DNA of 64,000 bases from NCBI GenBank assembly GCA_964016885.1, contig OZ024744.1, positions 53,134,001 to 53,198,000 on the forward strand. Reading direction: 5' to 3'. Under the pieces are notes generated by a model, which did not search any database, was not told where the DNA came from, and worked only from the letters and a program-made list of their open reading frames with translations. Made by a program: the position numbers and the translations under genes. Every line of letters begins with the position of its first letter. Within the stretch, counting starts at the first letter, position 1. This document shows, piece by piece, positions 38,861 to 44,880 of the stretch. Origin of the DNA: Eledone cirrhosa. Its lineage: Eukaryota.

Positions 38861-38926
38861 CAGATAGATATATATATATATATATATATATATAGATAGG
38901 TAGATAGATAGATAGATAGATAGATA

Positions 38927-41900
38927 TATTTCTTTATTTGCCACAAGGGCGCACAAGAAAAGGGGACAATACAAAGACATGCCGGGGATTTTACATACAG
39001 TCGTGTAAAAAATATAAAACAAACAATTACAACAATCGAAATTCCCAATAGGGGGAAGCGCAACAAATGGGTTGTTTAATACCCCGCCGATAGAACAACC
39101 CTCAACTCCAGGAGCGTGTTGTGCAAGTGCTCCTTTCTTCCTTTTGCTCTCTTCTTTAACCTACAGGCTTATAAACAGAGAAGGCCCAATCACTCGGACC
39201 ATTTTTGCCACATTCACCCACCTTTTAGTAAATTTACTGGGGTGCAGTGCCTCTCTCTCCACTCTGATTCTCCTTCTAAAGTGATACTTAAAGAAGGGAA
39301 TCAATTGTTGTCCGGAGAGAAAGGCATCTGTCCTCAGTCCTCTTAATCTCGTCCACCATATAACTTCTTTCACCATAGCCACTGTACAGAGGAAAACCAC
39401 CTCTCGTTTTTTAAAGAGGCTGGCGGTTTAATCCTTACTATGGACTCGGCAGTCAACTGGATTTGTCCCTTAGGCGACAACAGTTGTTCTGCATAGTTCC
39501 ACAGGTCGGTTACGCCCGGGCCGTGTACAATTGCGTGCAGGACGGTTTCAATATCCTGCACGCATCTTGGACACGTCCTTATGGAAGGATCCCTGCCGGT
39601 GCGTCCGTGCCTGTAGATCTTGTCATGAACCGGTAGAGCTCCTCGGAAGAACTGCCAGGCCAAAGACCTCTGGAAGTTGTCCATAGGTCCCGGGCGGAAA
39701 GTCATACCAAACAGACTAGTGAGGCTCATCGTCTTCGACACCCAGAGTCTCTCGGAGCACGTCGTCGCCCTTGTAACGTACAATCCCTCTATAGAATGTC
39801 GAAGTGGAGTCTCTACTGATTGCTGTGCCCGCCTGCCAGAGGACTGTGAGCGCCTGAGCTCATTCAATGTGCAAGCGCCCATCGTTTTCGGTCTTTTCTT
39901 GACCCAGGACTGCAGCTCCGTTAGCGAGACGAGCTGCGGGAAAGCCTGTCTCACAAACGGTGCCCACACCGGTTGGGGGTCGGTGAGGAATACCTGGAGA
40001 TGCCGCAGCCTCAGTGCATGATTTCGCATCATCAGCCACGGCATTCCCAGCCCTCCGTTGGAAGGGTGCTGACAGCAGGCGGATCGCCTCACGAGCGGAG
40101 CCTGCTTCTTCCACAGAATCTGGAAGAGCATGCGTTCCATCTTGGCGAGGTGTTCACGGGGACAAGGCACGACAGTCAAGCGGTAGTAGATGACAGACGC
40201 TATGAAAGTGTTCACCACCTCCGCTCGACCTTTCAAGGACAGTTTGCACTCTGCCCACTTCTGGGTGAGCGCAAATACCTTGGCCGTAACCTCGTGCCAG
40301 TTCTTCTCCACCTGGAGGTCTGGACCGAACCAGATCCCGAGCAATATTACCGGTCCGTCCGTCCAGCGTCCAACGACGCTGTCGGATGTCATCGGTTTGC
40401 CTCTCCACGTACCGAGTTGCAAACCGACAGACTTGTCCGGGTTTAGTTTTGCTCCCGTCAGCGTTTCGTATTCTTTCAGTAAGTTGCTGATCATCCCGAT
40501 TTCCGAGGTGCTCGACACCATTACCGTCACGTCGTCGACATAAGACGACGCCGCTTTGCGAAGTCCCGATTCTAGAGAGATGCCCTGCAACAGCTCCAAT
40601 TTCCGCAGTATTGGCTCTAGAGTCAATACATAGAGAATGGAGGAAAGAAGGCACCCCTGTCGAATGGAACGCGTGATTGCGAACGGCTCCGATAGGCAGC
40701 CGCTCACCTTGCCACTCGAGCAGATGCTGGTGTGCATCGCCTTGATCCAGCCTCTGAAAACGGAACCGAAACCGGCCGCCTTGAGAACAGCTTCCAAGTA
40801 TCGATGGTCGACCCTATAGAATGCCTTATACAGATCCAAATTGATCAGAGCCCCACCGAAGCCGGGTTTACTACCCACCCTCTCTATGATGTATCGCATG
40901 AGGTGGAGGTTGTCGTGTATGGACCTGGTCGGGATTACACACGTTTGCGCTTTCTCTACCAGGTTCTCGACGACAAGCGCCAACATCAACGCTAGCACCT
41001 TGGCCAAAATCTTTAACTCTGTGTTGAGCAGAGTTATGGGCCTGAAGTTGTTAATTTCGTCCCCCTTCTTCTCGTCTTTCTTAATCAGTGTTACTACGCC
41101 CTTGCCTGCAGAACTGGGAATTCTCCCGTTCTGCTGCCAATTGCAGTAGACGGCTTCGAGGACGCAGGAGAACAAGTCCGGCATGCCTATGTAAAACTCA
41201 TACAGTAGACCATCTAGACCGGATGATTTGCGCTTCCCGCAGCGGCCCAGAGCGGTCCGTGATCGGTCTTTCGCAGAACTCGGCGTCCGTGTTCGAGAGA
41301 CGCGGCAGGCCGTCGAGGTATGAACTAAAGTCCATTGCCCCGTTCGGCTCACCGTCGTTCTGCTCAAACAGTAGCGCAAAGTGCTGCTGAAAGGCCGCGC
41401 ACATTTGCTTGTGGTCAAGTAGCACGCGTCCGTTTTGGTCTTTCAAAGAACGAATCATGGACTTGTTGCCACTTTTTGCCTCCGCCACTCGGGCCCAGCT
41501 GGTAGCTTTCGCTCCTTCGTTTCCTAGAGCACGTATTTTGCTTCTGACCATGCATCCTTCGCGTTTCGCATCGAAGAACTGGTCCAGTGCCGTTCTCGAA
41601 GCTAACACACTAGCCGCGTTTCCACTTCTAAGTGCCTCCTCTACCTTGGCTACTATTTCTCTTTCTATTTTCTTTTTCTCTAAGGCTAACTCTCTGCTAA
41701 ACCCTATCGATTCTACTCTAATTTCTTTCTTGAGAGAGTACTACCATCTATTGTTGACGATGGTTCCCGTTAACTGTTGCTTGACTAGTCTACTTACTCG
41801 TTCACTGTCAGCTTTACGTGCCGGCAACGACACGTTCAGCTTCTAGTACCGGGTCCCTGTCTATGTGTTCTGTCACGGTTGACTATGCGGACGACTAGTT

Positions 41901-44696
41901 TGTGATCTGAATAGGCAAGCATGTGCATTCGTGGACAGCTCAACATCTCCTTGTCCCTTTCTCTAATGAAGAACCTATCTAAATACTATATATGTAGATG
42001 TCCCCCTGCGGTTTGCCGACGTCCACTGTGGTGCAGTCGGGAAATCCAGTCGATACCTATCGGCCAGTTGGAATTGGCTGATTAAAGTTTTGAGGCTGTT
42101 GCACCCCCCTCTACTGGGACATGCTCCCACATAGTGCCATCGTGCATCTAGGATACCATTCTAGTCCCCCACTAAAAGTAAGGAGCAAGACGTTCCCAGA
42201 AAAGACTCTAGACGGTTAAAGAAATCTGGCCGTGATTGCGATTGCCCGGTCGGGGCATAAACGGCCACCAGTCTGAAGGCCTCACCTCCAATACTGTTCA
42301 CCTCTAGGACTACGAGTCTACCCTGCGGGTCCAAGTGTACTTGCTGTACTTCGACGTCTAGGTTCTTCCGAAACATGACAGCCACTCCCCTTCCACCTCC
42401 TGGCTGACAGAGAGATGCGTAGATCTCAAAGTCGTCGAAGATGGGGGTTAGTTGCTGCCTTTGTGGGTCCTGGACTTGGTGATGGCTATCACATCCATAC
42501 CGTGTGACCTAAGTTCGTTTAAAAGTTGGCCCTGTTTCCAGAGCATCCCTAGGCCACGCACATTCACGCTTCCAACTCTTAAACTAGCCATGTTGGTGAA
42601 GAAGATTTGGCGAAAAGGACGAAAAGGAGCACTTACCTTTTCGTTTCCTGGAGATCGGGTTATTCAATCTCCATTTCAGTTCTGGTGGGAGTGTTGGGTG
42701 GGGTGGGGTAACATTTTAATAAGATCGGTTAATAGGTTTTTGACAGGGGTTGCCAACATCCTGCGAAAACTGTTCTTTCAATTTCTGATAGGTTTCAATC
42801 GAAACCCTTATTAGTTTTAGGTGTGGAGACGTATCTGCTTTGACGAAAGTTTTGCCCTCCGTCTCCACCTTGGGGTTTTGGGAGATGACCTCCATCGAAT
42901 TCTTGTTGTTTTTGTTGATGTATGCGTATAGTTTGTGTTTTTGTTGTGTTGTTTTAGTTTGTTGTTCGTCCGGGAGTTTTCTTTTTATGGTGGGTGCTTG
43001 TGTTTGGGGTGGTATTGGTGTTGGGTTTGCTGGTAGGGTGTTGTTTGTGTTGTTGTTTGTGTCTGTGGTTGTGTGTTGGTGTTGGTGATTGGAGTTTTGG
43101 GGCTTTCGTGGTGTCTCTTTTTTTGTTTTTAGATTTCCGAGGCTCTTCTTCTTCACTTAAAGAAGAAGCAGCCTCATCTGAATGAATAATCATCGTCAGG
43201 AGTGTGGAGTAGGGATTTGTTGTGTGGTGGTGGTGTTTCGGTGTGTGTGTGTTTGTGGTAGTGTTTGGTGAAATGGGATGGGTGAGGCTGTGTTCTTCAG
43301 GGGTGTTGTCTGTGTTTTTTCTGTTGTTGTTGGTTGAGTGGCTGTGTGTTTTGGTGTGTTTGCTCGTTTCGTCTGTTGTTGTACTTGTGGTCGTGGTTTT
43401 TTGGGTGTTGGTAATAGTGTTGTTGGGGTGTGTTTGTGAAGGACAGGAGGCCTTTAGGTGTGCTCTGCTACCACAGCGAAAGCAATGAAGTTTACGCCCC
43501 ACCACCGAAATCTTTATTTTGTTGTTGTCGTCGATGACTTTTTCGGGCATTTTGGAGACTCTCTCCGGCCTCATTTGCATCAGAATCTCCAAATCAGTAC
43601 CCTCCCACCTTTGTCTAATAGACTTTCGTATTGAAAGAATAGCATCAGTCTCTGGCTCCACGAAGCCGGCCAAGATCCACCAGTTGTTAATGTTTGGTGG
43701 TATATATTTTTTTTTTTTTTTTGTGTCCTTTTTCCCATGTACGTAGGGAAAAGGTGAATGCGTTTGACACCCATTGGTATCACATAATGTTTTGGGGCGA
43801 GTGCCTCGCTTTTAAACAGTACGGAAATACTTCCGTACTGTTTTCCTCGTTGAAGAAAGTCAATATTTGCTAGAGTCTCCTTCAAGTTGGCTTCTATGTC
43901 TCCTTGACTCACAAATATTGGCTTTCTCGTATTTTTTTAGACAGTCCTGAAGGTCACTGTCTTTCGAAATGTCTCTTCTTTTATTTCGATGGGTAAGTTG
44001 ATTCTAAACCTACCCTTGCCTTCGAAAGTTACAGATTTCCTCCCTTGCTGGAGCATATCTCTTGCATTGGAGATGTCAAGATTTATAAAATCTTGTTTTT
44101 TTGTTCACTGTTTCAGCGAAAGACATTTTTTTTGTGGTGTTGCTGTTGTTGTTGGTGTTATCGTTGTTAGCCTCGGTGTTGGAAATCGCAATTTCTTGAC
44201 GAGGTGAAATTTTATCTGTAGATGTATATATGGAGTTGTTGTTATTGGCTGTTTCATGTGTATGTATATTAATAGATTTAATTCCTGTTTTCCTGTGTAT
44301 GTTATTATTTTTCTCCGCTTCGACGGTAGAAATTTTAAAATGTTCAAGTGGCAATCTTATTTTTTCTTTGTTGACAGTCGTATCCATGACGACGTCCATA
44401 GTGGCAGAAGCAGATATGACGTTAATATCTGCCTCTCTACCTCTCTTCTCTCTGTTAACGTTCTCCGGCATTCTTTTCGAGTTATTCATGTTTTATAGTC
44501 GGCAAAATTTGATATTTTTAAACAATTCTTAAATTAAACTTTCGCCCCTAAAGGGGCGAAAAGTGGGATTACCACCCAGCTGACAATTCAGCTTGGGGGC
44601 TAATCTACAAAATGATATGTTTTTTCAAAAAATTAATTCAGTTTTTTGTATAGAAATTTACAAAAAAGCTTACCAGCGATGTTCCACGCGTCAGGC
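38927..44696 (-). mobile_element. Tx1 copy G, full-length diverged family embedded in (GATA)n
   Basis: ORF1 from 44489 (CFRCGSRAHLKASC), ORF2 ATG 42591 to 39161 (APE, RT, CPRC). (GATA)n lies at 38893-38926 and 44697-44870. Confidence 0.92.
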
Positions 44697-44880
44697 AGAT
44701 AGATAGATAGATAGATAGATAGATAGCTAGCTAGCTAGCTAGCTAGATAGATAGATAGATAGATAGATAGATAGATAGATAGATAGATAAGATAGATAGA
44801 TAGATAGATAGATAGATAGATAGATAGATAGATAGATAGATAGATAGATAGATAGATAGATAGATAGACAGACAGACATA
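44697..44880. repeat. (GATA)n/(GCTA)n microsatellite
   Basis: Seen directly. Confidence 0.95.

What the first reader, a model, noticed from the sequence alone, without database searches (positions are those of the whole stretch)
38893..44870. Sister Tx1 family that has switched target and tail from (TAT)n to (TATC)n
Seen: full-length copy G is flanked on both ends by (GATA)n. Its 3' end reads ...CCCTTGTGGCAAATAAAGAAATA then (TATC)n, whereas the other families end in the same motif then (TAT)n. Its APE differs visibly (e.g. VYAPTGQSQSRPD versus VYAPTGAGRPD). Inference: a recent change in microsatellite specificity between closely related endonucleases, useful for mapping specificity determinants. 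This rests on one insertion.
Basis: partly seen in the sequence, partly recalled or inferred. Interest (0 to 1): 0.7.

Follow-up and report, generated by a model that had tools for sequence, protein, structure and literature searches.

The report
Retrotransposon lineage targeting GATA microsatellites
A full-length but broken jumping gene (a LINE, likely of the Tx1 type) sits inside a GATA repeat while its distant cousins nearby sit in TAA repeats, so the two lineages likely aim at different repeats; the split is likely old rather than recent, and the same pattern is already known from fish and crocodile relatives.

Summary
G (38927-44697, minus) is a full-length L1-group element with sense-strand (TATC)n at both ends; the window's only two (GATA)>=4 arrays are these flanks, while 11 of 11 clean termini of seven neighbouring insertions abut (TAT)n. 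One independent locus supports family-level targeting: 77 reads in a public run join a G-type 3' end, a TATC-type tail and a 5'-truncated G-type copy. 'Recent' and 'closely related' fail. G's endonuclease is 58% identical to the TAT type (TAT families 76-93% to copy A), ORF1 about 30%, and both lineages have Argonauta relatives. G carries 7 frameshifts and 3 stops in ORF2. The QSQS loop maps onto a DNA-contacting loop of L1 endonuclease, but the extra two residues are a perfect 6-bp tandem duplication not seen in any close relative retrieved, so may be private decay. Best reading: an old sister lineage of microsatellite-targeting Tx1-like elements, paralleling Kibi (TC)n, Koshi (TTC)n and crocodilian (TTCC/TTTC)n families. 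A GATA target was not found in my literature searches; Repbase could not be searched. No genome was held, so copies could not be tabulated.

The parts
38927..44697 (-). Element G: full-length, decayed L1-group (Tx1-like) non-LTR retrotransposon
44698..44866 (.). 5' flank: (GATA)n array of about 42 units with a (GCTA) patch; TATC on the element's sense strand; presumed pre-existing target
38862..38926 (.). 3' tail/flank: (TATC)6 TACC TATC (TA)13 TCTATC on the sense strand; shared with the 5' junction of copy H
42592..44489 (-). ORF1 region, broken; CCHC zinc knuckle CFRCGSRAHLKASC at 43484-43443; about 30% aa identity to ORF1 of TAT families (start at 44489 is a candidate ATG, inferred)
41900..42591 (-). 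ORF2 APE endonuclease domain (ATG 42591), with frameshifts near 42467 and 41986 and a stop at 42161
42230..42262 (-). VYAPTGQSQSR loop = alphaB1-betaB3 loop of L1-EN (aa 117-120); 6-bp tandem duplication at 42245-42234
41974..42025 (-). betaB5-betaB6 hairpin equivalent (WTSANRRGTS..YLDR versus WTWxNxIGSSRSYLDR); interrupted by a frameshift in G
39161..41900 (-). ORF2 linker, RT (RVT_1 E 8e-25) and C-terminal zinc-binding region; stop codon ends at 39161
38927..39160 (-). 3' UTR ending in CCCTTGTGGCAAATAAAGAAATA, with AATAAA at 38938-38933
37190..38860 (-). Copy H: closest relative of G in the window (82% DNA in RT), 5'-truncated in ORF1, internally deleted, no 3' end; its 5' junction abuts the TA/TATC array
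7363..13267 (-). Copy C: full-length comparator of the (TAT)n lineage, (TAT)n at both ends
29755..35767 (+). Copy F plus 5'-truncated copy F2 in tandem, each end in (TAT)n: same architecture as the second G-type locus
16292..20437 (-). Copy D: 5'-truncated TAT-lineage copy, (TAT)n at both ends
1..3307 (-). Copy A: TAT-lineage copy with an uninterrupted APE frame, used as reference; 3' part lies outside the window

Best explanation
G is a broken full-length copy of an L1-group LINE lineage, likely Tx1-type, that likely inserts by preference into (TATC)n/(GATA)n arrays in one orientation, and it is a likely old sister of the lineage whose copies here sit in (TAT)n. Shown: two-ORF anatomy (zinc knuckle; APE, RT, zinc-binding C-terminus), sense-strand TATC at both ends, a second locus with TATC-type repeats at a 3' end and at a truncated 5' junction, and deep divergence. 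Inferred mechanism: the element's own APE nicks the GATA-reading strand. The two targets share the core TATY on the sense strand, so the enzymes would differ mainly in reading period or helix shape through the cleft formed by the VYAP loop and the beta-hairpin. The RNA's 3' repeat would pair with the nicked strand to prime reverse transcription, so tail and target match and new copies stack in the tails of old ones. The determinant is likely spread over several of about 90 differences, not the 2-residue insertion alone.
For: Flanks and orientation. Only two GATA arrays in 64 kb, both at G. 11 of 11 clean termini of 7 TAT-lineage insertions in sense (TAT)n, none in GATA. Second locus: joint 39123->38931 with 31 letters of GATA/GGTA/GACA units between, 77 reads, run X5 (table 5c); a 5'-truncated copy cannot have carried that repeat at its own 5' end, so it is target. 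Counting insertions: 1 vs 7 in the window alone gives Fisher p 0.125; 3 vs 7 with the second locus gives p 0.008 (not independent of how the finding was picked). H's 5' junction also abuts TA/TATC. Tree: G+H+P0115 UFBoot 85, apart from TAT families plus P0002. RT best solved matches are human L1 ORF2p, 93-95 bits versus R2 37-48. L1-EN cleft loops (PMC8565326). Precedent in Tx1 (PMC4494074).
Against: Only two loci; the second rests on RAD reads that may be copies of one molecule, from an organism label that may not be the window's species, and per-read likeness is not shown. 276, 264, 27 and 2036 records ran over G's ends but their letters were not displayed, so most ends are unseen. G's 3' flank and H's junction are compound TA/TATC, which fits a looser preference. 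An unassigned 3' end at 28636-28680 has G's GCCCTTGTGGCA motif followed by (TAT)3; upstream it scores no better to G (66) than to C, D, F2 (69, 75, 77). Nothing here separates endonuclease from RNA-tail effects. Tree support is moderate (G+P0115 67; root 64-67) and rows are query-anchored pieces of decayed copies. L1-EN reads shape more than bases, and nicking is looser than integration.
Confidence: 0.58

Rival explanations
1. Tail-led targeting: both lineages have a similarly loose endonuclease for TATY-rich DNA, and the repeat at the RNA 3' end (read through from the last target) decides where priming succeeds. One landing in a GATA array would found a self-perpetuating TATC lineage with no enzyme change needed.
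For: Tail equals target in every case seen. Targets share TATY. Nicking in vitro is less specific than integration, and RNA-DNA pairing is proposed as an added factor (PMC1950540 passages). The 2-residue insertion may be private.
Against: Tx1L-EN alone nicks almost only its own target. The lineages are 58% identical in APE, so enzyme divergence is ample. No TAT-lineage copy among 7 in the window has strayed into another repeat.
Confidence: 0.2
2. Loose preference: the G lineage favours AT-rich alternating microsatellites in general ((TA)n, (TATC)n, (TATG)n) or persists there passively, and the GATA flanks are one outcome among several.
For: G's 3' flank is compound TATC/TA; H abuts TA/TATC. 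Passive accumulation near microsatellites is described for Drosophila Waldo-A/B (PMC3812793). Only two loci seen.
Against: Three G-family insertions give four junctions, all TATC-type and all in the same orientation, although (TA)>=10 runs are far more common in the window than GATA arrays.
Confidence: 0.16
3. One reading: a recent switch from (TAT)n to (TATC)n between closely related endonucleases, caused by the longer VYAP loop.
For: The loop is the alphaB1-betaB3 DNA-contact loop of L1-EN; a +1 change in repeat period with a +2 loop is suggestive; the 3' UTR end motif is shared.
Against: APE 57.9%, ORF1 about 30%, RT DNA 69-72%; Argonauta relatives on both sides of the split. The insertion is a perfect 6-bp duplication; the Argonauta G-side protein P0115 has the 4-residue loop and none of the close relatives printed has QSQS. 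G-family contigs about 91-95% alike occur under two organism labels.
Confidence: 0.06

Closest known systems
Kibi ((TC)n) and Koshi ((TTC)n) Tx1 families of teleosts; crocodilian Tx1-1_Crp group ((TTCC)n/(TTTC)n) (PMC4494074, passages and section 15 read; PMC3812793, passages)
   Same: APE-type two-ORF elements; related lineages each specific for a different short microsatellite, with unit length changing among relatives (2, 3, 4 bases).
   Different: Targets here are AT-rich (TAT, TATC), host is likely an octopod mollusc (inferred from Argonauta hits); relation to Kibi/Koshi by tree not tested.
Xenopus Tx1L and human L1 endonucleases (PMC1950540 abstract and passages; PMC8565326 passages; PDB 1vyb, 2v0r, 2v0s, 8sp5)
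   Same: Same APE fold by sequence (E 1e-5 to 5e-4 for copy A); same two cleft loops.
   Different: L1 is promiscuous (TTTT/AA) with a poly(A) tail; Tx1L targets a DNA transposon. G's loop has 6 residues between P and R, TAT lineage 4, most other relatives 5.
Dong ((TAA)n-specific; PMC3812793 passage)
   Same: Targets the same repeat as the TAT lineage; Dong-R4 is abundant in Octopus vulgaris.
   Different: Dong/R4 use a restriction-like endonuclease (PMC4640811 passage lists R4 as RLE), not APE; only 21-26% RT identity between G/C and the Dong-like copies here.
L1-Tx1 families of Octopus vulgaris (PMC13282606; first third of text, passages and one supplement table row read)
   Same: 80 L1-Tx1 families, 56 Mb, 13 recently active: Tx1 in octopods is known.
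   Different: No target-site analysis in what I saw ('target' 0 hits in the supplement, 'Tx1' once in the main text); identity with those families not testable.

Membership tests
L1 group non-LTR retrotransposon | ORF2 with N-terminal APE followed by RT | tested here: met
   Exo_endo_phos on G fragment E 6e-4 (20.1 bits, below the 24.5 cut-off; fragment) and on copy A E 3e-14; RVT_1 E 8e-25
L1 group non-LTR retrotransposon | RT closer to L1 than to RLE-type elements | tested here: met
   L1 ORF2p 93-95 bits versus R2 37-48 bits; RTE, I and CR1 groups did not appear among the 10 matches, so they were not compared
L1 group non-LTR retrotransposon | C-terminal cysteine-rich zinc-binding region | tested here: met
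   CPRC-x7-H motif; zf-RVT E 0.0015 in G (below cut-off), 3e-7 in C
Tx1 clade | ORF1 with CCHC zinc knuckle (feature recalled, not from a call) | tested here: met
   CFRCGSRAHLKASC at 43484; zf-CCHC weak hit on D, E 0.004
Tx1 clade | RT phylogeny groups with named Tx1 families (Tx1L, Keno, Kibi, Koshi) | not testable with these tools
   No named Tx1 reference among fetched proteins or Atlas rows; the Tx1 label rests on anatomy and recall
Microsatellite-specific Tx1 (Kibi/Koshi-like) | More than 20% of family copies flanked by the repeat (Kojima's criterion) | tested here: inconclusive
   G family: 3 of 3 insertions seen, at 2 loci; no genome held. TAT lineage: 7 of 7 insertions with clean termini
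Microsatellite-specific Tx1 (Kibi/Koshi-like) | Repeat present at 5'-truncation junctions (target, not just tail) | tested here: met
   One G-type truncated junction at 39123; TAT lineage D and F2. One case only for G
Microsatellite-specific Tx1 (Kibi/Koshi-like) | Endonuclease nicks the repeat specifically | not testable with these tools
   needs an in vitro assay
Recently diverged specificity pair | High endonuclease identity with few differences | tested here: not met
   57.9% over 216 codons

The most novel reading that the evidence does not exclude
Octopod genomes hold a radiation of Tx1-like lineages that have divided up the AT-rich microsatellites ((TAT)n, (TATC)n, perhaps (TA)n for the H family) around a shared TATY core, stacking into each other's tails and helping build the host's large microsatellite arrays. 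The first step of a switch is a change of RNA tail that the endonuclease cleft follows later, and among the many families there are near-identical pairs with different targets that would settle whether enzyme or tail sets microsatellite specificity.
Probability: 0.2. Interest if true: 0.62.

Novelty: new member of a known kind. Interest (0 to 1): 0.33.

Why it matters
How APE-type retrotransposons pick microsatellites is described as not well understood (PMC3812793). A high-copy family set with different AT-rich targets in one genome would allow a genome-wide test of target versus tail and add (TATC)n to the known Tx1 targets. But target divergence among related Tx1 families is already documented, this copy is dead, and the pair is too divergent for simple determinant mapping. 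Moderate specialist interest.

Tried and rejected
No genome held. Pattern scan for the shared 3' motif: 0 in viral contigs; 5 metagenome loci, none with homology beyond the motif, treated as chance. Protein-based locus scans found no relatives (viral; GTDB). Whether the 6-bp duplication is family-wide could not be read: not among the 12 of 145 indel rows shown. Search for a G-family endonuclease in protein sets: none above 62% over most of the query. Summed contig depth (about 240,000 at the 3' end, 9,000 at the 5' end in X2) fits many 5'-truncated copies but is not a copy number, so not used as one. Earlier-findings look-ups returned nothing. Literature searches for a GATA-targeting Tx1 or octopus target analysis; none found; subscription papers (Kojima and Fujiwara 2004, seen only as a citation) and Repbase were not available. 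The MBD hit on A's ORF1 (E 0.004, below cut-off) was rejected as noise. No structure prediction was run; loop mapping rests on the phmmer alignment of copy A.
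Full report
Observation. Element G spans 38927-44697 on the minus strand. Its 3' end reads CCCTTGTGGCAAATAAAGAAATA followed by (TATC)6, TACC, TATC and (TA)13; its 5' end follows a ~170-bp GATA array. Both flanks read TATC on the sense strand. Runs of four or more GATA units cover 172 of 64,000 bases and lie only at these two places, against 12 TAA arrays. The loop difference is real. The copy is dead: 7 frameshifts and 3 stops in ORF2, and ORF1 is split over frames.

Surroundings. The window is a pile of related elements: A, B, C, D, E, F, F2, H, I. 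One search listed 19 termini. Eleven are clean termini of seven TAT-lineage insertions, and 11 of 11 abut sense-strand (TAT)n (nine distinct arrays, since E/F and F/F2 share one each); two of them (D, F2) are 5'-truncation junctions, so the repeat is a target and not only a tail. Two are G's. The other six were left out of the count: B's truncated 3' end (abuts A's array), E's inverted 5' piece (after three TAT units), both ends of decayed I (no array), and both ends of H. H is G's nearest relative here (82% DNA in RT); it is 5'-truncated in ORF1 right at the TA/TATC array that G's 3' end runs into, and has no 3' end.

A second locus. No genome was held. Of seven runs offered, four were laid on G at 80% likeness. 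The family is abundant and 3'-biased in organism B, and contigs about 91-95% alike over 210-390 bases occur under labels A and B (records 6, 7, 24). Terminal loose ends were not displayed. But table 5c shows, in run X5, 77 reads that align up to 39123, carry 31 letters made of GATA/GGTA/GACA units, and resume at 38931. Read on the element's strand: a G-type 3' end, a degenerate TATC tail different from the window's, then a G-type copy truncated about 200 bases from its 3' end. This is the F/F2 architecture with TATC in place of TAT. The TAT families align poorly to G in this part of the UTR, so reads at >=80% are G-lineage (inference). It is one locus, from reduced-representation reads that may be copies of one molecule. 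By insertions, 1 vs 7 gives p 0.125 and 3 vs 7 gives p 0.008, with selection bias unaccounted for. Against: an unassigned 3' end at 28636-28680 carries G's GCCCTTGTGGCA motif then (TAT)3, but upstream resembles G no more than C, D or F2.

Age and relatedness. G is 63-65% identical in DNA to copies A, B, C, D and F in APE and 69-72% in RT, while they are 79-95% among themselves. APE protein identity to copy A is 57.9% over 216 codons, against 76-93% for C, F, D, B. ORF1 pieces are 27-47% alike. In two maximum-likelihood trees, G and H group with an Argonauta hians protein (P0115, GAB1601854.1; UFBoot 85 for G+H+P0115, 67 for G+P0115), and the TAT families group with another A. hians protein (P0002, GAB1597330.1) and metagenome-derived relatives (90 in one tree, 64 in the other). 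Rows were query-anchored pieces of decayed copies, rows under 100 residues were dropped, and B's row is noisy. The split is therefore deep; if the host is not Argonauta it predates that host split, barring transfer. The host is likely an octopod (inference from these hits). Targets of the Argonauta elements are unknown, so the direction of change is open.

The endonuclease. Copy A's intact APE aligns to L1-EN with VYAPTGAGRP on IYAPN-TGAP and WTWTNCIGSSRSYLDR on the 192-205 hairpin region. In L1-EN-DNA crystals the nicked strand sits in a cleft between the alphaB1-betaB3 loop (117-120; Asn118 contacts the major groove) and the betaB5-betaB6 hairpin, with few base contacts (PMC8565326, passages). 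However, the two extra residues are a perfect GCAATC duplication. Among the first protein set, 38 of 40 with the motif have five residues between P and R, copy A four, G six. In one search, 42 of 152 proteins matched the motif: 28 with five, 7 with four, 2 with three, 5 with six (G and four distant proteins with unrelated loop sequences). P0115 on G's side of the tree has four. The duplication may be private slippage; could not settle it. The hairpin also differs (WTSANRRGTS versus WTWxNxIGSS) and holds a frameshift in G; one contig of organism A has four gaps across that region (record 7), consistent with private damage. Loop grafts from Tx1L onto L1-EN changed nicking but did not transfer specificity (PMC1950540, abstract and passages).

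Mechanism. Shown: anatomy, flanks, orientation, stacking, divergence. Inferred from the family's known target-primed reverse transcription: the APE nicks the GATA strand; the RNA's terminal repeat pairs with the freed end; tail and target therefore match and each insertion offers new targets. The two targets share TATY, so discrimination would rest on period or helix shape, spread over both loops and the scaffold (0.58). Rivals: tail-led targeting with a loose enzyme (0.2), general preference for AT-rich alternating arrays (0.16), recent loop-caused switch (0.06).

Comparison. It works like Kibi ((TC)n), Koshi ((TTC)n) and the crocodilian (TTCC)n/(TTTC)n families, where related Tx1 lineages already differ in repeat unit (PMC4494074, passages and section 15; PMC3812793, passages; PMC4640811, passages). 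Membership of the L1 group is met; membership of the Tx1 clade by tree was not testable, as no named reference was retrieved. Tx1 is known in Octopus vulgaris (80 families; PMC13282606, first third, passages and supplement row) with no target analysis in what I read. A GATA-targeting Tx1 did not appear in searches; Repbase and subscription papers, where such families are usually recorded (recalled), were out of reach, as were supplements of PMC4494074, which I did not open.

Verdict. A real feature and probably a real family-level target difference, but an old split of a known kind, seen at two loci, in a dead copy. New member of a known kind; interest 0.33.

Noticed in passing
window 13309-15700 and 23052-25443 (+): Two 95% identical RT elements of another class (RVT_1 E 7e-30, CRVC..H..C motif) ending in (TAA)n; the first abuts copy C's 5' TAT array. 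Likely Dong/R4-type (inferred, not tested), sharing the same target arrays as the TAT lineage.
   Followed up: partly
window 28680-29727: Copy E has an inverted 5' piece (28680-29003) joined to its 3' part, like a twin-priming inversion.
   Followed up: partly
window 28636-28680 (+): Orphan 3' end with the shared CCCTTGTGG..AATAAAGAAA motif and (TAT)3, preceded by AT-rich sequence not assignable to any family; possibly a SINE or very old copy.
   Followed up: partly
window 3308-3331: (TAT)8 joins the 5' end of A directly to an internal RT position of B; either B was deleted up to an array or a 5' repeat was added on insertion into non-repeat DNA.
   Followed up: no
window 7160-7340, 49757, 53005, 60714: Short dispersed repeat with CTTACG(G/T)GGT..AT.AAATAAAG.ACCAG core, SINE-like; one copy lies between TAT arrays of B and C.
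   Followed up: no
window 37190-38860: Copy H defines a third family (72% aa to G in RT); its target could be (TA)n or (TATC)n and it may be the better comparator for G.
   Followed up: partly
window 44870-44970 and 46700-47100: Degenerate GACA/TGGA/GATA mixed arrays beyond G's 5' flank, with no element inserted that blast to G detected.
   Followed up: no
proteins P0034/P0153: A close relative of these animal elements is annotated as a Herbaspirillum sp. MAG protein on a 1.8-kb contig, likely host contamination.
   Followed up: no
L005 189-209: Exact match to G's 3' motif followed by an A-rich (AAAAT)-like run in an unrelated metagenome contig; no other homology, probably chance but could be another element's end.
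   Followed up: partly
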